51,299 nucleotides of DNA, from the sequence record MZ234033.1; one strand, 5' to 3'. Both the position numbers and the translations under genes were made by a program. The stretch comes from Escherichia phage vB_EcoS-G3B1. Shown piece after piece: positions 1,635 through 51,299 of the stretch (within the stretch, counting starts at the first letter, position 1; each line of letters begins with the position of its first letter). Under the pieces are notes generated by a model that ran no database searches, had not been told where the DNA came from, and saw only the letters and a program-made list of their open reading frames with translations.

Positions 1635-1842
1635 GCGCGTCAAGCACAGGTTTACTGATAACCACGGCGACGCGATTGATGTATACAAGTTTGGCGATCG
1701 AGTTTTTATTGATGGCACGTTTGAAGGTGGGCGTAGGCCGGATTTTAGGTCGATACTTACCGTTGACCAAGTGCGCAAGCTGGCAGATAAGTTAAATGAT
1801 CTGGCAGATGAAATAGAATACAAGCAAATCCATTTTAATTGA
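1621..1842 (+). CDS. Hypothetical protein (73 aa)
   Basis: ORF with overlapping start in early cassette array. Confidence 0.5.
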   Translation: MKTNKRVKHRFTDNHGDAIDVYKFGDRVFIDGTFEGGRRPDFRSILTVDQVRKLADKLNDLADEIEYKQIHFN

Positions 1843-1853
1843 TAGGTTTTATA

Positions 1854-2393
1854 ATGAAAAAATACACTTTCGAACTATGGGGCAAGAAGTACGAATTAAT
1901 AACCAGCAAGCCGATTGTTATCGTTGACCTGGACGGCACACTATCGGACGGATCGCATCGTTTGCATTTGCTGCCAACTGAAAACTTGCACCTTACGGAG
2001 TCGTGGAGCGAATTTAACAGGGCCGCCGCCGGAGATTCACCGATTAAAAGCACGATCGCGGTTATTAACGGTTTGTGGGTGTCGGGATTTGCCATCGTCA
2101 TCTTGACCGGACGCAGCGAAGAGGTGCGCTATGAAACCTGCAAATGGTTGAATGAGAGCGGCGTGAAGTTTGACGAAATCATCATGCGCCGCCAGGAGGA
2201 CAACCGAAAGGATACGGTTATTAAAGAAGAAGCCTTGCGCGCTATTGGCCTGGACAATATTGTTTGCGCCTTTGACGATTCGCCGAACGTTGTTAAGCAC
2301 TTCCGCAGCCTGGGAATCACAACCTATCAGGTCACGGAATACGACAAGCCGCACGCTCACCTGCAATCTCACGGCGTGGAGTGTTTAAAATGA
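1854..2393 (+). CDS. Polynucleotide 3'-phosphatase, HAD family (T4 Pnkp phosphatase-domain-like)
   Basis: DxDGT motif (VIVDLDGTL), TGRSEE and RRQEDNRKDTVIKEE segments, C-terminal AFDDSPNVV; resembles the phosphatase half of T4 Pnkp from memory. Confidence 0.7.
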   Translation: MKKYTFELWGKKYELITSKPIVIVDLDGTLSDGSHRLHLLPTENLHLTESWSEFNRAAAGDSPIKSTIAVINGLWVSGFAIVILTGRSEEVRYETCKWLNESGVKFDEIIMRRQEDNRKDTVIKEEALRAIGLDNIVCAFDDSPNVVKHFRSLGITTYQVTEYDKPHAHLQSHGVECLK

Positions 2394-3280: not shown

Positions 3281-3871
3281 ATGAAACGAGACATTATCAT
3301 CCTTAATGGGACGCCAGGTTGCGGGAAGGACACTATTGCAGCTTACCTAACGGGCCATAGTTACCCAGCGGTTAAGGCGTCATTCAAACAGCCGATGTTC
3401 GATATTGCGTTTTCCATGCTTGGCCCGACTCGATATGATGAGTTTATTGACCTGTACAACGACCGAGAGCAAAAAGAAAAGCCTCAAGTTATCTTAGGCG
3501 GCAAGTCACCTCGACAATTCATGATCTGGATTAGCGAGGATGTAATGAAGCCAGTCTTTGGGGATCACTATTTCGGGCGTCGAATGGTTGAAGAGATTAA
3601 CGAGATGTACCGAGATTTGGCGGTTGTGATCAGTGATGGCGGATTCCCCGAAGAAATCAAGCCGCTTGTTAAGGCAGGGCATGAAGTGCATATTTGCCGA
3701 TTGCATCGCGACGGCTTCACGTTTGCTGGCGATTCGAGAGACTACATTGACCTGAGCGGTTATCACTATCGAATCCATCACTATGACTTCCACTTGCAGG
3801 ACGGCAAGCCGGAACTGGCTGTAAACGAGATCGTCAATGCTGTCAAATGGAAGCACACACAGATTAAATAG
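3281..3871 (+). CDS. P-loop nucleotide or polynucleotide kinase (T4 gp1 dNMP-kinase-like Walker A)
   Basis: Walker A GTPGCGKDT near N-terminus; size 196 aa; adjacent to phosphatase gene cassette. Confidence 0.5.
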   Translation: MKRDIIILNGTPGCGKDTIAAYLTGHSYPAVKASFKQPMFDIAFSMLGPTRYDEFIDLYNDREQKEKPQVILGGKSPRQFMIWISEDVMKPVFGDHYFGRRMVEEINEMYRDLAVVISDGGFPEEIKPLVKAGHEVHICRLHRDGFTFAGDSRDYIDLSGYHYRIHHYDFHLQDGKPELAVNEIVNAVKWKHTQIK

Positions 3872-4892: not shown

Positions 4893-5183
4893 ATGGCAAA
4901 CAAAACTTACCGCAAACTACTGGTTAACGCTTTTGAAAACATCGCGCAGTGTAACAAGTGGAACGACTCTAAACACTCGCCAATCACAATGAAGCGCGCC
5001 GGATTCAAAAATACTCGTTCATGGGCGCGAGCTTTCGCAGCTTGCTATATGCCGGATGGCGGACTAGGGGTGATGAACGATTTTTTGATCAACATGATAG
5101 AGGAAGCGGCGCGAGAGGATCGACCGCTGACACAGCGAGATTTTGACGGCTTCGCGCGCGATGAGCTTTACTATCTGAGTTAA
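4893..5183 (+). CDS. Hypothetical protein (96 aa)
   Basis: RBS AGGGGA; stop TAA embedded in cassette motif at 5182. Confidence 0.55.
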   Translation: MANKTYRKLLVNAFENIAQCNKWNDSKHSPITMKRAGFKNTRSWARAFAACYMPDGGLGVMNDFLINMIEEAAREDRPLTQRDFDGFARDELYYLS

Positions 5184-5232
5184 TAGCACTTTTTGTTAAA
5201 ACTTCCGCAAGGGCATTTGGTAAAGTGCCCTT
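5182..5232 (+). promoter_or_regulatory. Cassette motif + hairpin
   Basis: AATAGCACTTTTTGTTAAAAC at 5182-5202; hairpin AAGGGCATTTGGTAAAGTGCCCTT. Confidence 0.55.
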
Positions 5233-31524: not shown

Positions 31525-31549
31525 GCCCCGCATATGCGGGGCATTTTTT
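31525..31549. terminator. Bidirectional intrinsic terminator
   Basis: A-run, hairpin GCCCCGCATATGCGGGGC, T-run; between convergent ssb and fibre genes. Confidence 0.65.
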
Positions 31550-32222
31550 AGTCTAACGTGGTTGGTTTGTTTACCAGTGCCGCTACAACCGCTTTTAGCT
31601 CGTCAATTTCTTTTCTCATCTCATCGTTTTCCGCTTTCAGTTTCTTAACGTGGTGAATCAGTGGAACAGTGAGGCGGTCATACATAACGCCTTCCGCCAC
31701 CATGCCATTACTTGAAGCAATGGCAGGATCTTCTCCTTCTTGCAGCGGTCGCCAGTGAACGTACTCCGGCGCAATTTCTCCAACCTCTTCCGCGATTAGC
31801 CCGTACCATCCCCAATCTTTACGGTCGCTTTCACAAGTTGACCGATACCAAACAGGACGCATTTCAAGCATCAGATCCGCATATTCATCAATAACCGATT
31901 CTACGCTGCGCTTATAACGAGAAGAGGAAGTGGAGCGTAAAACTTGCGAAACTCCAGCATTTGGATCAAGCCATAAGTTTGCTGATTGAGCGGTTGTGTT
32001 AAGATTAAATAAATAAAATGCATCTTTACCAGTTAGGGGGTAAAAACTCCCACTATACCTTCCGCTACCCAACTCGGATGATAGATCAGTTTGTTTTAGA
32101 TACAACTTCAACTTATTGTCAACATCAGTAGTTGATGCTTTTCCTGCAACATCCTGTTTTAGTGTTGAAACGTCATTTTTCAGCTTCGTTATATCACTAG
32201 GTATAACAGTGACTGTAGCCAT
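31548..32222 (-). CDS. Short tail fibre-like protein with C-terminal S74-type intramolecular chaperone domain
   Basis: C-terminal segment SDRKDWGWYGLIAEEVGEIAPEYV...LKAENDEMRKEIDELK resembles self-cleaving chaperone domains of phage fibres; RBS AAGGAG. Confidence 0.5.
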   Translation of the reverse strand: MATVTVIPSDITKLKNDVSTLKQDVAGKASTTDVDNKLKLYLKQTDLSSELGSGRYSGSFYPLTGKDAFYLFNLNTTAQSANLWLDPNAGVSQVLRSTSSSRYKRSVESVIDEYADLMLEMRPVWYRSTCESDRKDWGWYGLIAEEVGEIAPEYVHWRPLQEGEDPAIASSNGMVAEGVMYDRLTVPLIHHVKKLKAENDEMRKEIDELKAVVAALVNKPTTLD

Positions 32223-32234
32223 TTTCCTAACTCC

Positions 32235-32513
32235 TTAAGCCCATTCTCTAATAGGCTGATCTAACTCAACCACGTATCCATTAAAAATTACGGCATCAAA
32301 CTTATCATCAATGATTCGCACATTAACGAAATAGCCGTCGTTCTTTCGCGCAATCTCCTCGCCATCGTCAGTTCGTGCAATTACTGTATAAGTATTGCCG
32401 ATTACATCGAGCAGGATTGCATCCTGAATGGATTCGTTATCATCCCAATTAATTTTTCCTAAAAAGGCCGAAAACTCGGCCTTGTCTGAAAATTTTAATG
32501 TTAAATCACGCAT
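32235..32513 (-). CDS. Hypothetical protein downstream of tail fibre (92 aa)
   Basis: Start overlaps tail fibre stop. Confidence 0.45.
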   Translation of the reverse strand: MRDLTLKFSDKAEFSAFLGKINWDDNESIQDAILLDVIGNTYTVIARTDDGEEIARKNDGYFVNVRIIDDKFDAVIFNGYVVELDQPIREWA

Positions 32514-34504
32514 TAAACAATTTCCCCCAATTGATGATCTGTTAGTGCCTTGTGCCAGATTCGCAAGTTCTTGACGTGTCCGAACAAGTGCCTGTTACCA
32601 GATGCAGACTGTCCGCCAATATTTATGTTTCCTGCAATGTATCGTTGCTTAGTCCACAATGAAGGAGACTCACTGCCAAGAACGCCATCAACTACAACTT
32701 GTAATTTTTTTTCTTCCGTAAATATGAATCCAGCAACAAACTTATTCTTAACTCTATCCCCATATGCTTTATATTCAGTTTTGCTACCTTTGCCGTTAGT
32801 GATTATCAACCTTCTTCCTCCGCTTGTTAAACCAAAATACATGTAACTCTCGTCTTGTATTTCAGTTGTAGATCCAGTAATTGATACATTTAGAAGTCTT
32901 GCTGATCCTTCTATGTTTGGCATTTTATTTACAGCGCCCCAATTAACATTAACCTCCATCAATGCGCATATAGGCGGAGTCGCCCAGTTCATAGGAATTG
33001 GAATGAGCACAATATCGCTAGCTCTTGTTGTTGGTGATCCTTCTGTTATTATGAATGATGATGCACACGAGCCAACCTCAATCTGAGGGGTTGTAAGATC
33101 CATAAAGCTAGTTTCATCAAGAATACCACCACCTGTTTTGTTGGCAATTGTAATAACACCTCTAACATGAGTTGTTTCATCTGTTATTTTATACACAACC
33201 TCTACAAAAACCCACTCACCAACACGAACAGCATTTTTTGCAACAATATTTTCTATATCGCCACCGGACAAATGAATACCTAGACTATCGCAATCAATGT
33301 ATGCAATTGCTACAGCAGATAGAGGATCGCCCTTATCAAATCTTGCACCAAATCTAACATTATTCCCTTTCGCTCTGAAAGATATAGTTACCATATCATT
33401 TTTTACAACTGGTATTTTATTTGGTGTCAGTCCTGCAATGACAGTATATGCACCAGTACCACCAGAAAATTCTCCTGGCTTGAATGTTGCATATTTAAAG
33501 CCTAATGGATCGGTCTTTGTTTTGCTTATTTCAAGCCCTGGGTTTGGATTCCATAACTCCGGTGAGTTTGAATTTATGAAATAGTTAGTTCTCTGACCTT
33601 CGATCAGTAAACCATCCCTTTCAAATCGAGGTTCATCAACATCTGCAATAGTAAGCACGCCAGCTTTATTTATGTAAGTTGCACCGGATGCGCGCTTAAA
33701 GTTGACAACCTTATCTGATGGCATTGTGATCACATCATCGCCAACAGTTATTTTTTTGTAACCAGGAGCAAAGCCGGTGATCATATCCAGGGAATCATTA
33801 AACGGTATCCACACGTCCGGCAACGGTTGCAATAAATCTTTGTAAGGTTCTGCGGCCTGCTTTGCGTATTCCTCCGCTTGATCTCGCGCGCTTTCAGCGC
33901 CTGCCTTTGCAGTGTTCGCAGCATCACGCGCAGTTTCAGCGCCTTCTCTTGCTGTTTCAGCGCCAGTCTTTGCAGTGTTTGCAGCGTCGCGCGCGGATTC
34001 AGCGGCAGCCTTTGCAGTATCAGCACCTTTCTTGCTATTCGCTGCATTTGTTGCGCTTGTCTTCGCGTTATTCTCGCTGGTTTTAGCTGCCTGCTGGCTT
34101 GCTGCTGCTGCGTCAGCATTTGTCTTTACGTCTTCCTGGATCTTCTGTAGCTTATCCCAATCAAAATCCTTGATGATCTCAATAAATCCAGCAAACTCAG
34201 ATTCCTTCCCCTGGTAATAACGCAGCGTTTCCGCTACGTCTTGCGCAAGACCGTCAACCGTTAACGAGTCATGAAGCAAGATCAGGTAATTTGTCTTCTG
34301 TACTACCGCGCCGCCAGTAGTAATTGCGCGAATGCTTGTATCGCTAATCACTTCAGTAATCACAGCAGCTTGCAAAGGTTGAGAAAGAAAGAAAATAGTT
34401 GCACCTGGGCGAATCAAGGTTAATTGCTCACGCCATTTTGTACCGTAACCAGTTACATAACCTTGCGCGTCCATAGACGCTTGGCCTTGTCTGTAAATCG
34501 CCAT
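32513..34504 (-). CDS. Side tail fibre protein with Ala-rich tandem repeats
   Basis: 663 aa; N-terminal MAIYRQGQA; repeat block AKTSATNAANSKKGADTAKAAAESARDAANTAKTGAETAREGAETARDAANTAKAGAESARD. Confidence 0.7.
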   Translation of the reverse strand: MAIYRQGQASMDAQGYVTGYGTKWREQLTLIRPGATIFFLSQPLQAAVITEVISDTSIRAITTGGAVVQKTNYLILLHDSLTVDGLAQDVAETLRYYQGKESEFAGFIEIIKDFDWDKLQKIQEDVKTNADAAAASQQAAKTSENNAKTSATNAANSKKGADTAKAAAESARDAANTAKTGAETAREGAETARDAANTAKAGAESARDQAEEYAKQAAEPYKDLLQPLPDVWIPFNDSLDMITGFAPGYKKITVGDDVITMPSDKVVNFKRASGATYINKAGVLTIADVDEPRFERDGLLIEGQRTNYFINSNSPELWNPNPGLEISKTKTDPLGFKYATFKPGEFSGGTGAYTVIAGLTPNKIPVVKNDMVTISFRAKGNNVRFGARFDKGDPLSAVAIAYIDCDSLGIHLSGGDIENIVAKNAVRVGEWVFVEVVYKITDETTHVRGVITIANKTGGGILDETSFMDLTTPQIEVGSCASSFIITEGSPTTRASDIVLIPIPMNWATPPICALMEVNVNWGAVNKMPNIEGSARLLNVSITGSTTEIQDESYMYFGLTSGGRRLIITNGKGSKTEYKAYGDRVKNKFVAGFIFTEEKKLQVVVDGVLGSESPSLWTKQRYIAGNINIGGQSASGNRHLFGHVKNLRIWHKALTDHQLGEIV

Positions 34505-34611: not shown

Positions 34612-35541
34612 TTATAGCAGTGATTCAGGCTTGTAGAGTTTTCTTTCTACGCCCTGTTTAAAATTATCGTTAACAGGCATCATTATGTCAAGCCCTCTTT
34701 CCTCTGCCGCGATTATCACATCACGATCATCTTTCCGGCAGACTACGCGCATTCTTCTTTCTCCTTTATATCTATGCGCAACCATTTCAAGATTTGAAGG
34801 AGTAAAACAGGCCCACACCTCTTGACCAGTTGATAAATGAACATGCTGAGAATCAATCCAATCAAGGCACAAATAGATCGTCTTATCTGTACTACCTGTT
34901 TTAACAACAGATCCGCGCGTGTAGTCGCGAGCTAAAAACCAATCCTTTCCATCCTCATCAATGAAAAGCACGTTACACATTTCATCATCCAGCCCGTCAT
35001 CATGCACCAGGTGACAAGGTAGCGCGTGAATGTATCGACCATCCTTGACGCCGCAATCATAATGACAATCTTCCGGCGGATATATCCCCTCATAAACGCT
35101 TAAAGGTGTGCGATCGAATTTTAATGTTTTTGCCATCACTTTTTCGCAACATTCATGACTTGCCTGTTTCCCGAACGAGTAACCAGAAGAACGCGAAGCG
35201 CGTTTGTTTGCTCTGATCCTGTAATCTTGTGGCACTTTTCCGAGGAAGCGGCCCAAAATGTTGATGGCCTCGCTGTAAGGTTCGCCAGTTAATTTCATTA
35301 ACCAACCGATCCCCGTGTCGTTGCCGCACACGTTGCAGATCGCGCCGCCGTCGCCCTCTTCATTTAGCTTATCAGTCCATCTAAAACGATCCTTACCGCC
35401 GCAGTGTGGGCAAGGTTGATGCTTTTTGTTGAAAACATCGCTATGCAGTCCGCAAATGCTTTGTAGTGCTTCACGCCATAACCCCTTCATATATGGCAAA
35501 ACATCTTCTTTCTGATAGGTCATAAAGTTTTCAGTATTCAT
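34612..35541 (-). CDS. DNA primase (zinc-finger containing, putative)
   Basis: CPHCGG...CNVCG zinc-binding motif; RBS GAGG before ATG at 35541 (ORF-track start trimmed). Confidence 0.5.
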   Translation of the reverse strand: MNTENFMTYQKEDVLPYMKGLWREALQSICGLHSDVFNKKHQPCPHCGGKDRFRWTDKLNEEGDGGAICNVCGNDTGIGWLMKLTGEPYSEAINILGRFLGKVPQDYRIRANKRASRSSGYSFGKQASHECCEKVMAKTLKFDRTPLSVYEGIYPPEDCHYDCGVKDGRYIHALPCHLVHDDGLDDEMCNVLFIDEDGKDWFLARDYTRGSVVKTGSTDKTIYLCLDWIDSQHVHLSTGQEVWACFTPSNLEMVAHRYKGERRMRVVCRKDDRDVIIAAEERGLDIMMPVNDNFKQGVERKLYKPESLL

Positions 35542-36073: not shown

Positions 36074-36084
36074 CTAGTCACCTC

Positions 36085-36160
36085 ATAGCATTTTTTGTTA
36101 AAACAGTTTATTGTAATGAGTCTATTATATACTCCAAATGGCATTTTTTAAAGGTTTAAG
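36085..36160 (+). promoter_or_regulatory. Divergent regulatory region: cassette motif variant (ATAGCATTTTTTGTTAAAAC) serving helicase (+) and abutting RBS of HTH gene (-)
   Basis: Motif lies 11 bp from the HTH gene start and about 55 bp upstream of helicase ATG with TATTATAT -10-like element. Confidence 0.45.
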
Positions 36161-38158
36161 ATGATTCCAAATATCGAAAAACAAATATCAGCATTAGGCG
36201 AGGCAGTAATAAAAAGCATCCAAGAGCGATTCACGGTTGGCAATATAGTGCCTTATCCTTATCAGTGCGTTGCGTATGCAGAGATCGCAAAGCGCATGAA
36301 AAACTATGAGCATCCTTTCTTTGTTAAGGCTTCTGTATCGGCTGGCAAAACATTGATGTTTGCGATGGTTGCGGCGCAATGCCGCAAAATGGGATTGAAA
36401 ATGATGGTCCTTGCTCGCCAGGCTGAAATTGTTGATCAGGATTCGGAGGAGATCAGCAATCTTGGCGTGCCAAACTCAATCTATTGCGCCGGACTGAAAA
36501 CAAAAAGCGCATACTTTCCGATCGTAGTCGGTTCTGAGGGCACTGTAGTAAACGGATTGTTTAAGTCGTTAGGTGATTATGTTCCGCACGTTATCGGTAT
36601 TGATGAATGTCACCAGGTGGATTGGGAGGATCTCGCGGACGCGATAGAAAATAATGAATCTTACCAGCAGATGACCACTAAGAAGGATTTGCCTGTACTG
36701 ATTGGAGAAGAACAGCAATTTGATTCCAATGGCGATCCAATGTTCGGAACAGGGCGCACACAGTACACCGTAATAATCATGGAAATGATGCGTAGGTGTC
36801 GCGAGGCATACGGGCACGAATTGCGAATATTCGGCATGACTGGATCTGAGTTTCGCGGCGTGGTTCCAATACTGGTTGAAGATAAGAACAAAAAGGGATT
36901 CTGGCGTGAGCAGGTGACTAACATAGACACAAACTACTTAATCAAATTCGGTTCGGTAGTGCCAACAAACTTCGGCGACGTAGGCGACCTGGGTTATGAC
37001 CTTTCAGAGTTCGAAGCCAGTAGCGAGGATGGCGTTTCAGACTTTGACGCTAAAACATTGCGCAAGATGGAAGAAAAGATCCATCAAGACGCAACAATGA
37101 CACAGAAAATCATGGCTAAAGTCCATGAGATATGCAAAGACAGGAACGGAGTTTTAGTTACATGCGCAGGGGAAAGGCACTGCAAGGAGGCCGCCGCCGC
37201 ACTGCCGCCAGGCGTTGAATACAGGATCATAACTGGCAAGACTGGAGATAATCAGCGTAAAGAGTGGCTGAGGGAGGCATACGAGGGAAAAGTAAAATAC
37301 ATCTTCCAGGTACAGGCGCTTACCACTGGCGTTAACGTTCCGTTTTGGGATACTTCGGTAATACTGAGAAAGATAGGATCTCTAACATTGCTTATCCAGC
37401 TTTTGGGGCGCGGCATGCGACTGCTTAAGCAATGGCACATTGAACAGGGATTCAAGAAAAAAGATCATCTTGTATTGGATTTTGCAGGTACTATGGATGA
37501 GTTAGGTGATTTGTATTTCGATCCAATCCTTGAGCAAGCGCAATTCCAAAAGAGATTTACAAACGGGAAAGAGCCTAAGACTTGTCCGATATGTGGAACG
37601 CTAAACAGCTTTTACGCTCGCCGATGTATGCACGTAGACGATAACGGGAAGCGATGTGAGCATTTTTGGACTTACAGAATTTGCGAGGACCAGGTAGATC
37701 AGAGAACGAAAAAGATAATCAAGCGCGGTTGCGGAACAAAAAACGACGTAGTGGCGAGAGTATGCCGTTGTTGCGATATTTCTCTTGTCGATCCTAACGA
37801 GAAGTTAAGCGGCAAGCACTACACCAAAAACGATTGGTGCAACGTTAAATCTTTCCGCGTTGATATGACGAAAAACCAGAAAGGAATTATTTTTTGCTAT
37901 GAGCTTGAGGCCAACGGCGACACGTTCAAGGCATACGAAAGATTTTTCCCTGAGTCAGAAAGCAACATTTGCCGGACGATATGGAGAAAAATAGCATTGC
38001 AGCACATACCGGATCGCAAGATTGCTGGTATGGTGGCGAGCTATAGAAATGCTCGTAAAATAATATCATACGCTCATCACATCATGCCGCCTGTACGCGT
38101 AACGCATCGCAAAAACGGCAAAGGTGAGGATAACATTGCAAAACGGGAGTTTGTTTAA
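36161..38158 (+). CDS. SF2 helicase (DEAD/DEAH-box type)
   Basis: Walker A SVSAGKT and motif II GIDECHQ; 665 aa; followed by VRR-NUC gene. Confidence 0.75.
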   Translation: MIPNIEKQISALGEAVIKSIQERFTVGNIVPYPYQCVAYAEIAKRMKNYEHPFFVKASVSAGKTLMFAMVAAQCRKMGLKMMVLARQAEIVDQDSEEISNLGVPNSIYCAGLKTKSAYFPIVVGSEGTVVNGLFKSLGDYVPHVIGIDECHQVDWEDLADAIENNESYQQMTTKKDLPVLIGEEQQFDSNGDPMFGTGRTQYTVIIMEMMRRCREAYGHELRIFGMTGSEFRGVVPILVEDKNKKGFWREQVTNIDTNYLIKFGSVVPTNFGDVGDLGYDLSEFEASSEDGVSDFDAKTLRKMEEKIHQDATMTQKIMAKVHEICKDRNGVLVTCAGERHCKEAAAALPPGVEYRIITGKTGDNQRKEWLREAYEGKVKYIFQVQALTTGVNVPFWDTSVILRKIGSLTLLIQLLGRGMRLLKQWHIEQGFKKKDHLVLDFAGTMDELGDLYFDPILEQAQFQKRFTNGKEPKTCPICGTLNSFYARRCMHVDDNGKRCEHFWTYRICEDQVDQRTKKIIKRGCGTKNDVVARVCRCCDISLVDPNEKLSGKHYTKNDWCNVKSFRVDMTKNQKGIIFCYELEANGDTFKAYERFFPESESNICRTIWRKIALQHIPDRKIAGMVASYRNARKIISYAHHIMPPVRVTHRKNGKGEDNIAKREFV

Positions 38159-38577
38159 TGGCTATAACTGATAAAGGAGATTATCTTGAGTTTTACGAAA
38201 GAGATCCAACCGACACGAGAAAGGAAGTTAATCACCAGATAGATAGCTTTCAGTGGTTGACTTATGCTCATCCTTATTTGCTAGCGTGGCATACGGTAAA
38301 CGAGAATGAGAAGTCGAAAGTAACGGCGATGATTGATCAGCAGTCCGGCTTGGTTAAGGGGGTAAGCGATTTCATCATCCTGATTGGTTCAAACGGAAAA
38401 TACCCCTTTGCAGCGATTGAGATCAAACGAGTTAATAAATCAGGCAAGGGGAAAGCATCACCAGTCAGCGATGAACAAAAGGCTTTTTTGCGTCGCGTTC
38501 GCAGCTTAGGAGGATTCGCTGCGGTCGCCTACGGATTTAATCAGTTTAAGTTAGCTATTGAATACATGCTTAAATAG
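38158..38577 (+). CDS. VRR-NUC family nuclease
   Basis: SDFIIL...AIEIKRV...SDEQKAFL pattern (PD-(D/E)XK-like); typical helicase-associated arrangement. Confidence 0.55.
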   Translation: MAITDKGDYLEFYERDPTDTRKEVNHQIDSFQWLTYAHPYLLAWHTVNENEKSKVTAMIDQQSGLVKGVSDFIILIGSNGKYPFAAIEIKRVNKSGKGKASPVSDEQKAFLRRVRSLGGFAAVAYGFNQFKLAIEYMLK

Positions 38578-38618
38578 CACTTTTTGTTAAAACTGGCGCG
38601 ATGGATTGCGCCATAATT
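38572..38618 (+). promoter_or_regulatory. Cassette motif + hairpin + ATAAT
   Basis: AAATAGCACTTTTTGTTAAAAC starting on stop codon, hairpin GGCGCGATGGATTGCGCC, then CATAAT. Confidence 0.55.
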
Positions 38619-38657
38619 CAATAACACGAGATTGCTTTTAATAGCGGAGAAATGAAA

Positions 38658-39383
38658 ATGGCTAAAGATATTTTAGATAAAGACACACATGACGCATTCG
38701 TTAGCTTTGAGCAGTTGGAGAGAGAAACGTTTATAGGAAATGCTCTTGCAACTGGAGGCCATTACCAGGCAGTAAAGCCAAATCAATATTATAAGGTAAG
38801 CGGCAACCGATACGCTGGAAGCACTACGCCGGACGTTGTGCGCGATATGTGGAGCACACCTCAAGAGATCGTGGAGTGGATGGAATCAGAATTTGGCGAA
38901 TACGATCTCGACGCGGCAGCAAGCCATGAAAACGCAGTTTGCGAGAAGTTCTATAGCAAGGAAACAAACTGCTTAAAGCGTTGGTGGGGTAGCAACAAGC
39001 ACGTATGGCTTAACCCGCCGTACAGCAACCCAACGCCATTTATCAAGAAAGCAATTGAGCAAATGGAGCACAACAACCAAATTGATGTTTTGCTGCCTGC
39101 CGACAATTCCACGGCCTGGTTTTATGAGGCGCAGAAAAACGCGGCTGAAATCATCTGGATCACTGGAGAAGTTTACGAAGAGGGGGGAGTGGAATATTCC
39201 CGCACCGGAAGAATCGCCTTTGTGTCTGGATTGACTGGCGAGCCTGTACAGGGCAACAATAAGGGAAGCGTGATTTTTGTCATGCGCAAACTTAAAGAAG
39301 GCGAGGAGCAGAAAACGCGATACGTTAAGATCAGCGATATTTGCCCCTCTGTAACCGAACGCCGCGCGCGCAAACGGAGCTAA
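38658..39383 (+). CDS. dam: DNA N6-adenine methyltransferase (phage Dam-like)
   Basis: Catalytic NPPY motif (VWLNPPYSN); ATG 38658 chosen over 38652. Confidence 0.75.
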   Translation: MAKDILDKDTHDAFVSFEQLERETFIGNALATGGHYQAVKPNQYYKVSGNRYAGSTTPDVVRDMWSTPQEIVEWMESEFGEYDLDAAASHENAVCEKFYSKETNCLKRWWGSNKHVWLNPPYSNPTPFIKKAIEQMEHNNQIDVLLPADNSTAWFYEAQKNAAEIIWITGEVYEEGGVEYSRTGRIAFVSGLTGEPVQGNNKGSVIFVMRKLKEGEEQKTRYVKISDICPSVTERRARKRS

Positions 39384-39387
39384 CACG

Positions 39388-39645
39388 ATGAAAAAAGAGA
39401 GAAGCGTTTATTTAAATGAAACTGGCGAGTGGTTGTTATTTCGCGCTATGGTGTGCGATGCACTTGATAAAAACCCTAACGTGAAAAAGATGATTGATTG
39501 CGATCCGTGGGAATTTTCAAGCGCATTAGATATGAGCTTTGATGAGACAAGAAAACTCCCTCTTGAAAAATGGCACGAACAAATCAGAAATGATATGCAA
39601 GAGTTTGTAGATTCGTGGAATTTTCAGAACGGAATGATCCACTAA
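39388..39645 (+). CDS. Hypothetical protein (85 aa)
   Basis: ORF directly after Dam gene; stop TAA embedded in cassette motif. Confidence 0.5.
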   Translation: MKKERSVYLNETGEWLLFRAMVCDALDKNPNVKKMIDCDPWEFSSALDMSFDETRKLPLEKWHEQIRNDMQEFVDSWNFQNGMIH

Positions 39646-39707
39646 TAGCACTTTTTGTTAAAACGCCCGGCATTTTGTCGGGCATAATTATTTCATCGAA
39701 ACGAACG
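39644..39707 (+). promoter_or_regulatory. Cassette motif + hairpin + CATAAT + conserved leader CATCGAAACGAAC
   Basis: AATAGCACTTTTTGTTAAAAC, hairpin GCCCGGCATTTTGTCGGGC, CATAAT, then TCATCGAAACGAACGTGAGGAAA. Confidence 0.55.
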
Positions 39708-39720
39708 TGAGGAAATGAAA

Positions 39721-39900
39721 ATGGTAGTATATAGCAAGAAAGCATTTGACCAGGCGCAACAAGCCGCACGAGAGGCGGTAAAAGGTGGAACGAAAAACAA
39801 TATGCAGCTTGATTGGGGCGCTGCAATGATTCTACTTCGCGTTGCATATGGTCACTACCCATTAGAATTTGCGGAGGCATATTATAAGCATGAAGGTTGA
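39721..39900 (+). CDS. Small hypothetical protein (59 aa)
   Basis: RBS GAGGAAATGAAA before ATG 39721. Confidence 0.45.
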   Translation: MVVYSKKAFDQAQQAAREAVKGGTKNNMQLDWGAAMILLRVAYGHYPLEFAEAYYKHEG

Positions 39901-40132
39901 ACAAGGTAGAGAGGCGGTATGGAATCACGCTAAAGAATGCGGAATAGCCGACGATATAAAGAAGATCGCGCAATACTTTGATATTGCAGATGTGAGCATA
40001 ATTAGCGGCGATAAGATGACTTTCCTCAAGGAAAGGCCGCGAAAAATGGTAAGAGTTCCAGCAGTTCCAACAAAAATTGATTTCAAAGAGGCAATGGCTA
40101 AAATCCGAGAGCCTCGCAAATATTATAAATGA
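39890..40132 (+). CDS. Hypothetical protein (80 aa)
   Basis: First ATG in ORF overlapping upstream stop. Confidence 0.4.
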   Translation: MKVEQGREAVWNHAKECGIADDIKKIAQYFDIADVSIISGDKMTFLKERPRKMVRVPAVPTKIDFKEAMAKIREPRKYYK

Positions 40133-40226
40133 GGATAGTTATCATGTGGCGCTTGTTTGTTCTACCGTTACCCGTTATCATCGCTGTTACAGTTATGTAC
40201 CATATAGTGATGAGATAGGTGGCAGA

Positions 40227-41342
40227 ATGAAAAATGTAAAAATTACAGATGAGCAATTCAAGATCGAACGGGCGGCGGGTAAGACATATAAACAGATCGC
40301 TCAAGAGTACGGAATGAATGTGAGAAGCGTCGAGCGTCGCGCGGCGCGACTTGCAAAGCAAGGCCAGGTATCCACCATTGGAGCGCCTGGTTTTGGCGTT
40401 CATGGTGAGTCAGTAATGACTGACAAAGAAGGCAACATAATCCTAAAGTGGACTAAAACCAGCAAGGATAAAGAGCAATTAGAAGCATTAATGCGCGCAG
40501 CAATGGAGGCATTTAGCGAGGAAGTGCCGCGATTAGATCCGGTTCCATTACAGGAGCGCGACTATAACGAAACGCTTTCCTTGTATCCGATCTTTGACAT
40601 GCACTTAGGCGCTATGGCCCATAAGCACGAATGCGGCGAAAATTGGGATACTGCCACGGCAGAGCGCGTTATGAATAACTTTATCGACTATGCTTTAATG
40701 TGCGCACCGGATAGCGAAAAGGCTGTCATCCTGATTGGTGGCGATATGCTGCATAGCGACGGCCTGGAGGCGGTTACACCTGCAAGCGGTCACGTACTGG
40801 ATCAAGATAGTCGATATGCAAAATTGGTTTACGTTGCCATCCGTGCAATGCGACGAGCAATCAATAAAATGTTGTTAAAGCATAAACATGTTGAAGTCCA
40901 GATCGTAGAGGGCAATCATGACCAATCAGGAATGATTTGGCTGCGCGCAGCAATGGCGGCAGCATATGAAAACGAGCCGCGCGTTTACGTTGATGTTTCC
41001 CCTCGCGTTGTGCACCACACGCAATACGGAAAAACTTTCCTTGCGTACCATCACGGGCACACAGTGCGTAAACCGGAGACTTTGCTAATGATGTGCGCGT
41101 CAGATTGGCGGGAGGACTTCGGAAACTCAAAAACGATGTATGCGCACGTAGGGCACTGGCATCACCAGACCGTAACGGAAACGTCGCTTGGCATCGTGGA
41201 AGTACATAGCACCCTGGCGGCAAAAGACGCATACGCAGCGCGCGGTGGCTGGCGATCTCGACGCCGTGCGGCGGTTATCATTTACGACAAAGAGCATGGA
41301 GAGGTTGGGCGATTTGTTCACTATCCAGAAATGATGAATTGA
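40227..41342 (+). CDS. HTH-domain fused to calcineurin-like metallophosphoesterase
   Basis: N-terminal HTH (TYKQIAQEYGMNVRSVERRAARL); phosphoesterase motifs GDMLHSDG, GNHD, GHWHH; RBS AGGTGG before ATG 40227. Confidence 0.6.
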   Translation: MKNVKITDEQFKIERAAGKTYKQIAQEYGMNVRSVERRAARLAKQGQVSTIGAPGFGVHGESVMTDKEGNIILKWTKTSKDKEQLEALMRAAMEAFSEEVPRLDPVPLQERDYNETLSLYPIFDMHLGAMAHKHECGENWDTATAERVMNNFIDYALMCAPDSEKAVILIGGDMLHSDGLEAVTPASGHVLDQDSRYAKLVYVAIRAMRRAINKMLLKHKHVEVQIVEGNHDQSGMIWLRAAMAAAYENEPRVYVDVSPRVVHHTQYGKTFLAYHHGHTVRKPETLLMMCASDWREDFGNSKTMYAHVGHWHHQTVTETSLGIVEVHSTLAAKDAYAARGGWRSRRRAAVIIYDKEHGEVGRFVHYPEMMN

Positions 41343-41388
41343 TGAATTTTTATTTAAATCAATGACAAATTAAATCAAAAACTTGCAA

Positions 41389-41418
41389 AGGGGCGGCGTT
41401 TGTCGCCTCTTTTTTTTG
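41389..41418 (+). terminator. Rho-independent terminator before lysis cassette
   Basis: GC-rich hairpin (GGCGGCGTTTGTCGCC) then T8. Confidence 0.6.
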
Positions 41419-41487
41419 TTTAATTTTTTACCATGTACGTTTATCATGCGGTCAATATATTGACTTTAATTAATATGGAGAATAAAA

Positions 41488-41703
41488 ATGAAAGATTTTA
41501 TTAACGCAGCTACCGCTGGATCTGGCGGTTCATCTATCGCAAGCGCCGCTACAGGGCAGTTAACCATTGCTATTGCCAGCTTTGTTTTAATGGCTGCATT
41601 CGGTGCATGGGGCGCTTACCTTCGCTGGCGTGATAGTAAAAAATTCCACGAAGCGATCGAAAAAGGTGATATTCAAAAAGCTATTGAAATCAGGGGCAAG
41701 TAA
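41488..41703 (+). CDS. Holin (putative)
   Basis: 71 aa, hydrophobic core [21 protein letters not shown] with charged C-terminus; immediately upstream of endolysin. Confidence 0.6.
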
Positions 41704-42845: not shown

Positions 42846-42907
42846 TTCGTTTCGATGAAACAAATATACCCGACACAAGGTCGGGAGTTTTAACAAAAAA
42901 TGCTATT
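42846..42907 (-). promoter_or_regulatory. Cassette motif variant + hairpin + TATATT + conserved CATCGAAACGAAC leader (minus)
   Basis: Minus-strand GGAATAGCATTTTTTGTTAAAAC, hairpin CCCGACCTTGTGTCGGG, TATATT, TTTCATCGAAACGAACC. Confidence 0.55.
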
Positions 42908-43023
42908 CCATACGCTTTACTGTAACCAATAACACACCATCATCATTGCATAAAACGTGTTCAGTGGTGCTAAAAGCTCGCATATCTGAATAAAGTAGCG
43001 TAAGTAAAGCATGAATAAAATCA

Positions 43024-48094: not shown

Positions 48095-48167
48095 ATCCTC
48101 GCATTCGTTGTCGATGCGTGTAATGTACAGGAATACGAGGATTGAGTTTTAACAAAAAGTGCTATTT
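48095..48167 (-). promoter_or_regulatory. Cassette motif + TACATT + CGCATCGACAACGA leader (minus)
   Basis: Minus-strand AAATAGCACTTTTTGTTAAAAC ... TACATTACACGCATCGACAACGAATGCGAGGA. Confidence 0.55.
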
Positions 48168-48429
48168 AGTCCAGAAATTCGATTTCACGCTCTCCAGTTA
48201 ACGGATCTGCAAGCCAGAATCCGAGCGGTTCGCCGTGAGCACCGCCATAGAATCCAAGCGCCGCCAGATCTTCACCTTTAACGAATACCAGATTTCCGCT
48301 ACGACTTACGTGAGAAACGTTAACGATAACCGGAAATGTGCGATCCTTAAATGCAGGCCGCAGGGCGTAACATCCGTTATTGAGCAAACGTGCTTTGCGC
48401 TTAACTGGAATAGGTGCATTAATTTTCAT
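48166..48429 (-). CDS. Small hypothetical protein (87 aa)
   Basis: RBS GGAGTAATAACC before ATG 48429. Confidence 0.5.
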   Translation of the reverse strand: MKINAPIPVKRKARLLNNGCYALRPAFKDRTFPVIVNVSHVSRSGNLVFVKGEDLAALGFYGGAHGEPLGFWLADPLTGEREIEFLD

Positions 48430-49411: not shown

Positions 49412-49472
49412 CGTTTCGATGTGTGTAATGTACCCGATCAGGTGGCCTGAGTTTTAACAAAAAGTGCTATTT
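49412..49472 (-). promoter_or_regulatory. Cassette motif + TACATT + CACATCGAAACGAAC leader (first minus cassette)
   Basis: Minus-strand AAATAGCACTTTTTGTTAAAAC ... GGGTACATTACACACATCGAAACGAACCGCTCAGGAG. Confidence 0.55.
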
Positions 49473-50084
49473 GACAGTTAGCACCAGGATTGTGATCGAA
49501 ATAATCAAAAGTAATCATTCGTAATCAAATCACGTCAAAATGATGATTGTCTTTGCAAATTTGATGAGAAAAGTAATCACGTTTAATCATTGGTTGCAGG
49601 GGAGATAGTGAAACCTTCCCCTCTTGCCTCACTTTTCCGCCTGGCTGTCAGTGGTTGTTGTCTTTTGTTCACCACTGTTACCGATTTCATGCGGCGTGTT
49701 TCCGCGCGGTTTTCCGGTGTATCGAAAACGGAAAAAACAAAAAAAATCCTTTATAATACATTGAAAATAAAGATTATTTATTTATATATATCTATAATGT
49801 TTTCTTTTTGTTCTCACTGTTACAGTGCTTTTTGTTGGGTGTGGTGTGGTTGTGTGTTGGTATATATGGATAGTTGCGCGCGCGGCGGATTGCATATGTA
49901 TATATACTTTTTCCGGCGGATTGCGTTAACAGCGTGAACAGAAAAATAACAGCACTGAAATCAATAACTTGCGCATGATTTTGTAGTTTTTCGATATTGG
50001 TAACGTTTTGAATACAACAAAAACATTGACACGCACCAAATAGCTTTTATAATGCGCCAACAGTCAACAACTGGAGGAAAGGAA
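49473..50084. promoter_or_regulatory. AT-rich divergent intergenic island with GTAATCA iterons, GT-rich tract and near-consensus sigma70 promoter (TTGACA 50026-50031, TATAAT 50048-50053)
   Basis: About 610 bp without credible ORF; shares GTTTTCCGGTGT(T)ATCGAA, GT-rich and TGTATGTATATA blocks with 28543-28967. Confidence 0.55.
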
Positions 50085-50549: not shown

Positions 50550-50818
50550 AAAAGGCATTAATCAGCGTTTTGGCGGCAATGGCATTCCTGACCGGATGCA
50601 AAGAAGATGGCGCGCATGTTGGCAATGTGCAGATGGCTAACCCTGGCGATGACTACAGCGTAAGGGAGCTATTCACCGCTGACGGTTGCACCGTTTACCG
50701 ATTCTATGACGATCGCACTGTTTACTTCACCAACTGCAAGGGCACTACTAGCTGGGAAGTGTCGAAAAGCAATGGCAAAGGCACGAAGACAGAACATATG
50801 ACCGTCGAGACAAAATAG
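50546..50818 (+). CDS. Early lipoprotein (90 aa; candidate superinfection exclusion or receptor-masking protein)
   Basis: Signal peptide with lipobox LTGC (MKKALISVLAAMAFLTGC); ATGA overlap with upstream gene. Confidence 0.55.
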   Translation: MKKALISVLAAMAFLTGCKEDGAHVGNVQMANPGDDYSVRELFTADGCTVYRFYDDRTVYFTNCKGTTSWEVSKSNGKGTKTEHMTVETK

Positions 50819-50874
50819 CACTTTTTGTTAAAACGCCAGGCGCAAAGCCTGGCATAATAGCCTCATCGAAACGA
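50813..50874 (+). promoter_or_regulatory. Cassette motif + hairpin + CATAAT + CATCGAAACGAGATTG leader
   Basis: AAATAGCACTTTTTGTTAAAAC on stop codon, hairpin GCCAGGCGCAAAGCCTGGC, CATAAT, CTCATCGAAACGAGATTGAGGAAA. Confidence 0.55.
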
Positions 50875-51091: not shown

Positions 51092-51277
51092 ATGAAAACG
51101 AAACTAGTCCATAAGTCAGAAATCAAGATCGGCGATACTGTGATTCACAACGGCGAGCTTAGAACGGTTGGCAAGGAGTCAATAAGCCACGATGAATTTA
51201 TGGGGATCTTGTTGTTCGGTGACTCTTATCGTCTTGGTTACAAGATGGTTGAGCTTGTGGAAGAGGTCAAATTCTAA
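51092..51277 (+). CDS. Small hypothetical protein (61 aa), runs across the circular junction
   Basis: RBS AGGTGAATAG; C-terminal ELVEEVKF resembles the EFEEVK ends of 1171..1634 proteins; stop inside cassette motif. Confidence 0.5.
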   Translation: MKTKLVHKSEIKIGDTVIHNGELRTVGKESISHDEFMGILLFGDSYRLGYKMVELVEEVKF

Positions 51278-51299
51278 ATAGCACTTTTTGTTAAAACTC

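What the first reader, a model, noticed from the sequence alone, without database searches (positions are those of the whole stretch)
40133..41342. HTH-phosphoesterase fusion preceded by GTTATCAT repeats
A calcineurin-like metallophosphoesterase (GDxxH, GNHD, GHWHH) carries an N-terminal helix-turn-helix, an unusual pairing suggesting a DNA-targeted nuclease/phosphatase or an enzyme-linked regulator. The 94-bp region upstream (40133-40226) contains three GTTATCAT-like repeats that could be its operator.
Basis: partly seen in the sequence, partly recalled or inferred. Interest (0 to 1): 0.4.

Follow-up and report, generated by a model that had tools for sequence, protein, structure and literature searches.

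The report
Phage nuclease-like gene with hidden micro-gene
The gene is an ordinary, very widespread but untested phage enzyme (a DNA-binding domain fused to a nuclease-like metallophosphoesterase). The supposed "operator repeats" in front of it are codons of a conserved, mostly unannotated 24-codon gene for a tiny membrane-type peptide.

Summary
The window is a complete T1-like coliphage genome (Drexlerviridae, Warwickvirus; 99.7% identical to phage tinuso over the 1.8-kb query 39800-41600).

**The gene.** The 371-aa gene at 40227..41342 is real.
- It has an N-terminal three-helix HTH.
- It has a metallophosphoesterase domain in which all five metal-binding motifs are invariant across distant relatives.
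- The pairing is not unusual. It is the standard architecture of PHROG 704 ("DNA repair exonuclease"), found in 2,047 phage records and 4,616 protein clusters. It is a persistent gene of Drexlerviridae.
- No member has been tested experimentally.
- The fold, the motif pattern (GDxxH, GNHD, GHxH) and recurring neighbours in other phages (exonuclease, endonuclease VII, polynucleotide kinase, dNMP kinase) point to a DNA-tethered nuclease of phage DNA metabolism. This is an inference.

**The "operator".** This reading is refuted.
- The 94-bp "upstream region" is filled by a small ORF, 40144..40218, encoding MWRLFVLPLPVIIAVTVMYHIVMR.
- A counterpart is present in every Drexlerviridae lineage sampled and intact in 41 of 43 loci.
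- Substitutions follow a coding pattern.
- Its stop codon overlaps the Shine-Dalgarno sequence of the enzyme gene.
- The GTTATCAT copies are the spacer plus start codon, Val-Ile-Ile, and Val-Met-Tyr.

**Regulation.** The likely regulatory element is a repeated promoter-like motif at 39644-39704.

Interest is low to moderate.

The parts
39644..39704 (+). Promoter-like repeated element: AATAGCACTTTTTGTTAAAAC (39644-39664), GC-rich hairpin (39665-39683), -10-like CATAAT (39683-39688), TTCATCGAAACGA (39692-39704). Likely start of the transcription unit that ends with the phosphoesterase gene.
   Evidence: There are 11 distinct near-exact copies in the genome, all intergenic and all oriented towards the downstream gene. 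The 12th listed copy is the 127-bp assembly overlap. The same element lies directly upstream of micro-ORF+PE in Rogunavirus C119. Function is inferred, not shown.
39715..39900 (+). Small gene, 61 aa, unknown function (PHROG 2180)
39890..40132 (+). Small gene, 80 aa from ATG 39890, unknown function (PHROG 2817). Its stop TGA (40130-40132) overlaps the SD of the micro-ORF.
40131..40135 (+). Shine-Dalgarno GAGGA, 8 nt before the micro-ORF start
   Evidence: Read from the sequence. Conserved as GAGG(A/G) or GGAG in most relatives.
40144..40218 (+). Micro-ORF, 24 codons plus stop: MWRLFVLPLPVIIAVTVMYHIVMR. A hydrophobic peptide of single-TM length. Contains 'repeats' 2 and 3; 'repeat' 1 (40138-40145) ends in the first two bases of its ATG.
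   Evidence: A counterpart is found in 14 of 14 annotated Drexlerviridae loci examined. It is intact in 41 of 43 Drexlerviridae-like IMG/VR loci. pN/pS is 0.41 in this frame against 1.82 in the frame of the enzyme gene. Pairwise differences per codon position are 6.4/3.0/10.0. Kyte-Doolittle mean is 1.58.
40217..40222 (+). Shine-Dalgarno AGGTGG of the phosphoesterase gene, overlapping the micro-ORF stop TAG (40216-40218)
   Evidence: Read from the sequence. The stop-in-SD arrangement (TAAGGAG, TAGGAG, TAAGGA) recurs in relatives.
40227..41342 (+). HTH-metallophosphoesterase gene (371 aa), PHROG 704 'DNA repair exonuclease'
40248..40358 (+). N-terminal three-helix HTH (aa 8-44), LuxR/GerE/sigma-70 region 4-like
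40398..40523 (+). Beta-hairpin (aa 58-78; G69 and W75 nearly invariant) plus helix (aa 82-99), linking the HTH to the catalytic domain
40566..41321 (+). Metallophosphoesterase catalytic domain (aa 114-365). Motif I 40596-40604, II 40740-40754, III 40911-40922, IV 41052-41060, V 41151-41165.
41387..41412 (+). Intrinsic-terminator-like hairpin plus T run that ends the unit, ahead of the holin gene (41488)

Best explanation
This locus is the distal end of a four-gene operon of a T1-like phage. The order is two small genes of unknown function, a 24-codon micro-gene, and a 371-aa enzyme.

**The enzyme.** It is a member of the very widespread phage family PHROG 704. It has an N-terminal LuxR/sigma-region-4-like HTH, a beta-hairpin/helix linker, and a binuclear metallophosphoesterase domain with every metal ligand intact. 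The most likely mechanism has two parts. The HTH and linker hold the protein on DNA. The Mre11/SbcD-like active site (GDxxH, GNHD, GHxH) cuts phosphodiester bonds in DNA. The probable role is phage DNA metabolism: breakdown of host DNA for nucleotide salvage, and/or processing of replication and recombination intermediates.

**The micro-gene (40144..40218).** It encodes a conserved hydrophobic peptide of about 23 residues. The peptide has a central Pro and a Tyr five or six residues from the C-terminus (six in this window). The micro-gene is translationally chained to its neighbours. The upstream gene's stop overlaps its SD, and its own stop overlaps the enzyme's SD. Ribosomes finishing the micro-gene are therefore delivered onto the enzyme's start.

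**Shown:** the gene structure, the domain folds (predicted), motif invariance, the family's breadth, and the conservation and coding signature of the micro-ORF.

**Inferred:** DNA binding, nuclease activity, biological role, membrane insertion of the peptide, translational coupling, and promoter function of the 39644-39704 element.
For: **Identity**
- The 1.8-kb query 39800-41600 is 99.7% identical to phage tinuso. The protein is 100% identical to that of phage tunzivis.

**Family**
- PHROG 704 at E=5.4e-149 over the full length.
- 2,047 phage records across Drexlerviridae, Guernseyvirinae, Dhillonvirus, Autographiviridae, Casjensviridae, and Vibrio, Campylobacter and Flavobacterium phages.
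- 4,616 clusters at 50% identity.
- The module exonuclease-holin-endolysin-spanin is persistent in 508 of 522 Drexlerviridae (PMC13164509).

**Catalysis**
- Metal-ligand residues are invariant in 134 representatives at 31-56% identity.

**HTH**
- Supported.
- Among 102 distant members, individual HTH Pfam models each hit up to 20: HTH_1 20, HTH_8 13, HTH_50 12, Sigma70_r4_2 10 (best 1.5e-9), GerE 4 (2.4e-8).

**Neighbourhood in other phages**
- Exonuclease and endonuclease VII upstream, polynucleotide kinase downstream, in ECBP5.
- PNK and dNMP kinase downstream in Yersinia vB_YenM_646.
- A phosphatase and a P-loop ATPase-domain protein downstream in Webervirus Sanco; PMC13164509 reports polynucleotide kinase and dNMP kinase as the commonest genes after the exonuclease in phages lacking SH3.
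- Between replication protein O and a DnaB-type helicase in temperate mEp044.

**Micro-ORF**
-.
- No conserved RNA structure and no Rfam family, so peptide coding is the explanation left for the conservation.
- Retained beside the upstream gene when an HNH gene is inserted between it and the enzyme gene.
Against: - No member of the family has been assayed. I found none in four literature searches aimed at the family and T1 or in PDB sequence searches.
- Sequence-level links to Mre11/SbcD and to P. putida MPE are not significant, E about 0.7-1.6.
- No Rad50/SbcC partner is annotated nearby.
- Gene context is variable. In Jerseyvirus and Kagunavirus the gene sits in a small cassette among tail genes.
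- In this window the gene is not adjacent to PNK (1839..2393) or dNMP kinase (3281..3871).
- For the micro-ORF, pN/pS of 0.41 is only moderate constraint. 2 of 43 loci carry a nonsense or frameshift change. The temperate relatives lack it. No expression data exist.
Confidence: 0.6

Rival explanations
1. First reader's model. 40133-40226 is a non-coding control region, and the three GTTATCAT-like repeats are operators bound by the enzyme's own HTH (autoregulation).
For: Two exact copies lie 36 bp apart, with a third degenerate copy. The 8-mer is over-represented in the genome, 7 against 1.69 expected. The protein does have an HTH.
Against: The interval is occupied by an SD, a conserved 24-codon ORF and the next SD. 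The repeat positions vary as codons (GTTATCAT, GTTATGAT, GCTATCAT, GTTATTAT) and are absent in T1, C119, Sanco, SRT8, Pocis76 and LF82-19, which keep the peptide. There is no dyad symmetry. The + strand copies checked are in-frame Val-Ile-Ile codons. No promoter above chance lies in the interval.
Confidence: 0.03
2. The enzyme starts at GTG 40146 (398 aa, as annotated in RefSeq for phage tonn and others). On this reading the 'upstream region' is an N-terminal extension and the micro-ORF is spurious.
For: The enzyme's frame is open back to 40077 in this phage. RefSeq NC_049815 annotates the 398-aa form. A 398-aa cluster with 193 members exists.
Against: Nearly all homologues are 370-380 aa. In PGN590 and pSf-1 the micro-ORF is in the same frame as the enzyme and separated from it by a stop codon. 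pN/pS in the extension frame is 1.82. A good SD (AGGTGG) precedes ATG 40227. The conserved N-terminus M-x-x-x-K-I-T-D-E-Q starts there.
Confidence: 0.03
3. The micro-ORF is translated only as a leader (upstream ORF) that sets the translation level of the enzyme. The peptide itself has no function.
For: Its stop codon overlaps or abuts the enzyme's SD in nearly all lineages. In this phage a hairpin could pair micro-ORF codons with the SD. The temperate relatives manage without it.
Against: Peptide features persist where the DNA is no longer alignable: length 22-26, a central Pro, and a Tyr five or six residues from the end followed by phi-phi-M in most lineages, T1, SRT8 and LF82-19 included. 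The hairpin is not conserved, with consensus energy -1.5 kcal/mol, and its z-score is only -1.7. The ORF is kept with the upstream gene when an HNH gene separates it from the enzyme gene.
Confidence: 0.2
4. The enzyme is an anti-defence phosphodiesterase that destroys cyclic (oligo)nucleotide immune signals, or another small-molecule phosphodiesterase, rather than a DNA nuclease.
Against: An HTH is conserved family-wide. The gene is persistent rather than variable in Drexlerviridae (PMC13164509). Recurrent neighbours are DNA and nucleotide-metabolism enzymes. There is no PADLOC hit, though that library covers defence systems, not anti-defence genes.
Confidence: 0.12
5. The protein acts mainly as a transcription factor or as a protein phosphatase (lambda-PPase-like) that reprograms the host.
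For: The HTH resembles sigma region 4 and LuxR-type activators. Lambda phosphatase is an MPE (my knowledge; PMC2190708 listed).
Confidence: 0.05

Closest known systems
Mre11 / SbcD nucleases (binuclear metallophosphoesterase nucleases of DNA end processing; in phage T4 gp47 with gp46)
   Different: Only 13-18% identity, and profile E-values of 0.7-1.6. No Rad50/SbcC partner is annotated nearby. No Mre11-type capping domain was recognised. Instead there is an N-terminal HTH plus beta-hairpin module and two family-specific invariant loops, aa 179-196 and 331-346.
Pseudomonas putida MPE / PdeM (ligase-associated Mn2+-dependent ssDNA endonuclease; PMC7826289)
   Different: Far below the family cut-off (16.5 against 150 bits). 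PdeM is about 200 aa, lacks an HTH, and sits in a bacterial Lhr-ligase repair operon.
Mycobacteriophage cluster A metallophosphoesterase (A10ZJ24 Gp48, Bxb1 gp47; PMC12287305)
   Same: A phage-encoded MPE with all five motifs. It was shown to have phosphodiesterase activity and to damage host genomic DNA. It offers a functional analogy for a phage MPE acting on DNA.
   Different: Not the same family. hhalign of the family profile against Bxb1 gp47 gives probability 8%, aligning only motifs III-V. It is 255 aa and has no HTH.
MJ0936 / YfcE-type small phosphodiesterases
   Different: 11% identity. These are single-domain proteins of 165-184 aa with no DNA-binding module.
Small phage membrane proteins placed just upstream of homologous genes (for example the 59-aa 'superinfection immunity' protein of Jerseyvirus SETP13)
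   Same: A short hydrophobic ORF immediately upstream of the HTH-MPE gene is also seen in Dhillonvirus B2 (26 aa), SETP13 (59 aa) and the metagenomic loci L103 (46 aa) and L104 (63 aa).
   Different: There is no detectable sequence similarity between these peptides, and no PHROG family for the Drexlerviridae peptide. The association was not tested statistically and could reflect proximity to lysis genes.

Membership tests
Calcineurin-like metallophosphoesterase superfamily | Five metal-binding motifs: D-x-H, GD-x-x-D/H, GNH[DE], H, GH-x-H | tested here: met
   D124/H126, D173/H176, N230/H231, H276 and H310/H312 are present, and invariant or nearly so in 134 distant relatives.
Calcineurin-like metallophosphoesterase superfamily | Beta-sandwich MPE fold | tested here: met
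Calcineurin-like metallophosphoesterase superfamily | Pfam PF00149 gathering score | tested here: not met
   16.8 bits against a 21.5 cut-off. Only 21 of 102 distant members match at E<=0.01. The clade is divergent and no Pfam model covers it.
PHROG 704 ('DNA repair exonuclease') | Full-length profile match | tested here: met
   E=5.4e-149; residues 5-370 match profile positions 3-389 of 390.
Mre11/SbcD | Significant sequence or profile similarity to Mre11/SbcD | tested here: not met
   The family profile against PDB gives E=0.7-1.6 for T. maritima Mre11.
Mre11/SbcD | Rad50/SbcC ATPase partner gene | tested here: inconclusive
   None is annotated within +/-5 kb in phage tonn, and no adjacent partner was seen in ten other contexts. 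The whole genome was not searched with a Rad50 profile.
Mre11/SbcD | DNA exo/endonuclease activity | not testable with these tools
   Needs biochemistry.
HTH DNA-binding domain (LuxR/GerE / sigma-70 region 4-like) | Three-helix bundle with helix-turn-helix geometry | tested here: met
HTH DNA-binding domain (LuxR/GerE / sigma-70 region 4-like) | Pfam or curated threshold for a specific HTH family | tested here: not met
   Sigma70_r4_2 scores 18.3 against 25.7 bits, and HTH_28 scores 17 against 25. Some distant members do reach strong scores: Sigma70_r4_2 1.5e-9, GerE 2.4e-8.
HTH DNA-binding domain (LuxR/GerE / sigma-70 region 4-like) | DNA binding | not testable with these tools
   Needs EMSA or ChIP.
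PPP-type Ser/Thr protein phosphatase (lambda phosphatase) | GDxVDRG and GNHE motifs | tested here: not met
Mycobacteriophage cluster A MPE (Bxb1 gp47 / A10ZJ24 Gp48) | Profile-level homology beyond the shared motifs | tested here: not met
   hhalign probability 8.4%, with 86 columns aligned.
Operator / repeated protein-binding site | Repeats lie in non-coding DNA and are conserved as DNA independently of any reading frame | tested here: not met
   The repeats lie in or abut a conserved ORF, vary as codons, and are lost in other genera.
Protein-coding small ORF (micro-protein gene) | Conserved ORF with start, SD and stop; substitutions biased to third codon positions; peptide-level conservation beyond DNA alignability | tested here: met
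   The 29-aa version is annotated as a hypothetical protein in a few GenBank records.
Protein-coding small ORF (micro-protein gene) | Evidence of translation and membrane insertion | not testable with these tools
   Hydropathy of 1.4-2.3 and a length of 22-26 residues fit one TM helix. No expression data were available.

The most novel reading that the evidence does not exclude
The roughly 23-residue hydrophobic peptide may be a genuine, so far undescribed membrane micro-protein of Drexlerviridae that works together with the HTH-metallophosphoesterase. It might, for example, anchor or time a DNA nuclease at the inner membrane, for host-DNA breakdown or for exclusion of superinfecting DNA. Analogous pairs of a small membrane protein and an HTH-MPE would then have arisen repeatedly in other phage groups: Dhillonvirus, Jerseyvirus (with an Imm-like protein) and metagenomic lineages.
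Probability: 0.12. Interest if true: 0.6.

Novelty: new member of a known kind. Interest (0 to 1): 0.3.

Why it matters
- **The enzyme.** It is one of the most common phage genes with no tested function. It is persistent in Drexlerviridae and present in more than 2,000 phage genomes of many families. It is routinely labelled "DNA repair exonuclease" purely by remote similarity. Knowing that the HTH is family-wide, which residues are invariant and which neighbours recur gives a concrete hypothesis to test: a DNA-tethered nuclease feeding nucleotide salvage.
- **Annotation.** The micro-ORF shows that a region read as regulatory, or annotated in RefSeq as an N-terminal extension, hides a conserved gene below the length cut-off of gene callers. 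This is an annotation error propagated across many T1-like genomes.
- **Scale.** None of this overturns current understanding. It is a modest correction and a lead.

Tried and rejected
1. **Operator reading.** Rejected; see the rival explanations.
2. **GTG-start 398-aa protein.** Rejected.
3. **Conserved RNA structure or riboswitch in 40130-40235.** RNAalifold consensus energy is -1.5 kcal/mol with essentially no covariation. The single-sequence z-score is -1.7. Rfam gives nothing at E<=1 in 40133-40226; the only hits are chance-level sRNA matches at the terminator.
4. **Sigma-70 promoter inside 40133-40226.** None was found. The nearest match (40077-40104, 9/12) lies within a region where counts are at chance, 10 found against 11.1 expected.
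5. **Defence-system membership.** No PADLOC hit.
6. **Homology to the characterised mycobacteriophage MPE.** Rejected.
7. **Direct PDB sequence homologues.** None: phmmer best E=1.7, spurious.
8. **PHROG family for the peptide.** None.
9. **Literature.** Searches for Drexlerviridae with phosphoesterase, for escape mutants, and for T1 host-DNA degradation found only annotation-level mentions. A search for the promoter motif string returned only an unrelated PCR primer among the hits examined. The Metis and escaper papers do not involve this gene.
10. **afdb50 fold library.** Unavailable.
11. **The search for related loci with the distant alignment.** Failed for lack of a conserved stretch; the closer alignment was used instead.
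12. **Conserved partner gene.** Gene-neighbourhood look-ups of distant representatives gave short or uninformative contigs and no universal partner.
Full report
**What the window is.** The last 127 bases repeat the first 127, an assembly overlap of a circularly permuted genome. The 1.8-kb stretch 39800-41600 is 99.7% identical to Escherichia phage tinuso and about 99% identical to many Warwickvirus isolates (Drexlerviridae, Tempevirinae). The finding lies at the end of the replication and DNA-metabolism block: helicase 36161..38158, VRR-NUC 38158..38577, and Dam-type methyltransferase 38652..39383. It sits just before the lysis cassette: holin 41488, endolysin 41703, spanin.

**Checking the observation.** The ORF 40227..41342 (371 aa) exists. 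GTTATCAT occurs exactly at 40138 and 40174, with a degenerate GTTATGTA at 40192. The statement that 40133-40226 is an upstream, non-coding region does not hold.

**What lies in the "94-bp upstream region".**
- The stop codon of the preceding gene (TGA, 40130-40132) overlaps a GAGGA Shine-Dalgarno sequence.
- Eight bases later an ATG (40144) opens a 24-codon ORF, MWRLFVLPLPVIIAVTVMYHIVMR.
- Its stop (TAG, 40216-40218) overlaps the AGGTGG Shine-Dalgarno sequence of the enzyme gene, whose ATG is at 40227.

**The small ORF is conserved across the family.**
- The same arrangement is found in every Drexlerviridae lineage I sampled, including ones whose DNA no longer aligns. Examples:
  - T1: MKLYFAVVLTPLISFSVMYFIIM
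  - Rogunavirus C119: MKTLLPLMAMPLTFIIMYFIIC
  - Webervirus Sanco: MRYIAILITAVVLTIAIFNYAIQLG
  - Also SRT8, Hafnia phage Pocis76, LF82-19, and several Hanrivervirus and Henuseptimavirus phages.
- The peptides share a length of 22-26 residues, strong hydrophobicity (Kyte-Doolittle 1.6-2.3), a central proline, and a tyrosine five or six residues from the end (six in this window). Sanco and its close relatives lack the central proline.
- Among 43 Drexlerviridae-like IMG/VR loci the ORF is intact in 41. One has a nonsense codon and one a frameshift. In two loci an HNH homing-endonuclease gene has been inserted between the ORF and the enzyme gene, and the ORF stays with the upstream gene.

**The substitutions follow a coding pattern.** In 20 distinct Tempevirinae sequences the mean pairwise differences per codon position are 6.4, 3.0 and 10.0. 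pN/pS is 0.41 in the ORF's frame and 1.82 in the frame of the enzyme gene.

**Neither RNA structure nor an N-terminal extension explains the conservation.**
- There is no conserved RNA structure and no Rfam match.
- The GTG-start 398-aa version of the enzyme, annotated in RefSeq for phage tonn, is not supported. Homologues are 370-380 aa.
- In PGN590 and pSf-1 the small ORF is in frame with the enzyme gene but separated from it by a stop codon.

**What the repeats are.** They are, in order, the spacer plus the first two bases of the start codon, Val-Ile-Ile, and Val-Met-Tyr. The + strand copies checked at 11039, 40174 and 41274 are also in-frame Val-Ile-Ile codons. This accounts for much of the genome-wide excess of the 8-mer.

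**The enzyme: catalytic domain.**
- PHROG 704 ("DNA repair exonuclease") matches over the full length at E=5e-149.
- Pfam sees only sub-threshold Metallophos and HTH signals.
- The AlphaFold2 model (mean pLDDT 76.6; the predicted strands and helices of the core mostly 85-95) gives an MPE domain from about residue 114 to 365.
- In an alignment of 134 representatives at 31-56% identity the invariant residues are D124, H126, D173, T184, N230, H231, H276 and H312. H176, H310 and D232 are nearly invariant. These are the canonical metal ligands, so the enzyme is very probably active.
- From my knowledge of these families, the combination GD-x-x-H, GNHD, GH-x-H is that of Mre11-type nucleases and many phosphodiesterases. 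It is not that of PPP protein phosphatases.
- Two further invariant segments fall in low-confidence loops and are specific to this family: VTPxSGHxLDxDxR (aa 183-196) and AKDAYAxRGGWRS (aa 332-344).

**The enzyme: N-terminal domain.**
- Modelled alone, residues 1-105 give three helices followed by a beta-hairpin and a long helix.
- A family profile finds GerE, RhlR and DesR first in the PDB, at E=0.013-0.09.

**The HTH is not a peculiarity of this phage.**
- Among 102 distant representatives, individual HTH Pfam models each hit up to 20 members, some strongly (Sigma70_r4_2 at 1.5e-9, GerE at 2.4e-8).
- The family is very large: 2,047 of 50,697 phage records, spanning siphoviruses, podoviruses and myoviruses of Proteobacteria, Campylobacter and Flavobacterium. 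It comprises 4,616 clusters at 50% identity.
- A 2026 survey found the module exonuclease-holin-endolysin-spanin in 508 of 522 Drexlerviridae (PMC13164509).
- The pairing is therefore the norm for a known, catalogued family.

**What the enzyme probably does.**
- I found no experimental work on any member. No solved structure turned up by sequence.
- The inference rests on architecture and context. In other phages the gene has these neighbours:
  - an exonuclease and endonuclease VII upstream, and polynucleotide kinase downstream (Autographiviridae ECBP5);
  - polynucleotide kinase/3'-phosphatase and dNMP kinase downstream (Yersinia vB_YenM_646);
  - a phosphatase and a P-loop ATPase-domain protein downstream (Webervirus Sanco), and, per PMC13164509, polynucleotide kinase and dNMP kinase as the commonest genes after the exonuclease in Drexlerviridae lacking the SH3 gene;
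  - replication protein O on one side and a DnaB-type helicase on the other (temperate mEp044).
- This fits a DNA-bound nuclease that breaks down DNA for nucleotide salvage and/or processes replication and recombination intermediates.
- From memory, T1 is known to degrade host DNA. I could not retrieve a source.
- A characterised mycobacteriophage MPE that damages host DNA (PMC12287305) is a functional analogy only. It is not homologous beyond the shared motifs.
- The context is not uniform. In Jerseyvirus and Kagunavirus the gene sits in a small cassette among tail genes. In this genome PNK and dNMP kinase are elsewhere.
- I put the nuclease reading at roughly 0.55-0.6. The anti-defence or small-molecule phosphodiesterase reading is about 0.12. 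Regulator or protein phosphatase is about 0.05.

**How the unit is probably expressed.**
- A 21-nt motif, AATAGCACTTTTTGTTAAAAC, occurs 11 times in the genome. It is always intergenic and always points at the next gene.
- It is followed after about 18 nt by a -10-like hexamer. In many copies the spacer forms a GC-rich hairpin of different sequence.
- One copy at 39644-39664 precedes the two small genes, the micro-ORF and the enzyme gene. A strong terminator-like hairpin follows at 41387-41412.
- In C119 the same element sits directly in front of micro-ORF plus enzyme gene.
- This is the better candidate for the control region. Its function is inferred.

**Verdict.**
- The gene and its motifs are confirmed.
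- The "unusual fusion" is a common, already catalogued but functionally untested phage family.
- The operator hypothesis is refuted and replaced by a conserved, largely unannotated micro-gene that is translationally chained to the enzyme gene.
- Whether the peptide has a function of its own (my preferred reading) or only serves as a leader remains open.

Noticed in passing
window 101-125 (same copy as 51273-51297), 1093-1117, 5178-5202, 36080-36104, 38569-38593, 39644-39664, 50810-50834 (+); 42887-42911, 48146-48170, 49451-49475 (-); weaker flank at 34898-34907 (-): A repeated 21-nt motif, AATAGCACTTTTTGTTAAAAC, has 11 distinct copies. All are intergenic and all point at the downstream gene. 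Each is followed about 18 nt later by a -10-like hexamer: (C/T)ATAAT in most copies, TACATT, TATATT or TAAAGT in others. In many copies the spacer is a GC-rich hairpin whose sequence differs between copies while the pairing is kept. Several copies are followed by TTCATCGAAACGA. It looks like a phage-specific promoter or terminator-promoter module. I did not find the motif string in the searchable literature.
   Followed up: partly
window 40146-40226; locus L001 5347-6543 (RefSeq NC_049815): RefSeq and several GenBank records annotate the enzyme with a GTG start 81 nt upstream, giving 398 aa. This swallows the micro-ORF region in another frame. The comparative data indicate the start is mis-called.
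   Followed up: yes
loci L048 and L051 (IMG/VR), nt about 222-697; also phages vB_Eco_mar001J1, Henu8 and phiE31-2: An HNH homing-endonuclease gene is inserted exactly between the micro-ORF and the enzyme gene in some relatives. T1 and C119 carry homing endonucleases just downstream of the enzyme gene. The gene's borders are hot spots for homing-endonuclease insertion.
   Followed up: partly
loci L014 (Dhillonvirus B2), L010 (Jerseyvirus SETP13), L103, L104, L102: In several unrelated lineages short membrane-type ORFs also lie immediately upstream of the homologous gene. They are 26 aa in B2, 59 aa ('superinfection immunity') in SETP13, 46 aa with two TM segments in L103, and 63 aa with a C-terminal TM segment in L104. 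This may be a recurring partnership, or a by-product of nearby lysis genes. No statistics were done.
   Followed up: partly
window 1-127 and 51173-51299: The last 127 bases are identical to the first 127. This is an assembly overlap of a circular or circularly permuted genome, so the unit length is 51,172 bp.
   Followed up: yes
GenBank MG065687, MG065649 and about 18 more: About 20 records named 'Campylobacter phage' (UNVERIFIED, host C. jejuni, unannotated) are Hanrivervirus-like Drexlerviridae, 79-87% identical to this E. coli phage over this locus. The host labels look doubtful.
   Followed up: no
window 1839-2393 and 3281-3871 (+): These encode polynucleotide kinase (PHROG 415, E=6.5e-65) and dNMP kinase (PHROG 139, E=3.5e-50). 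In other phages the same two functions sit directly downstream of the HTH-metallophosphoesterase gene. Here they are about 11-13 kb away around the circle.
   Followed up: partly
window 40761-40814 and 41220-41258 (aa 179-196 and 332-344 of the enzyme): Two segments are invariant or nearly so across the whole family, VTPxSGHxLDxDxR and AKDAYAxRGGWRS. Both are modelled with pLDDT below 50, and I could identify no counterpart in Mre11/SbcD. They are candidate substrate-binding or oligomerisation loops.
   Followed up: no
window 32436-32443 (+): This is the only GTTATCAT copy in a true intergenic region, between the two minus-strand genes 31548..32222 and 32513..34504. It is isolated, with no second copy nearby.
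   Followed up: no
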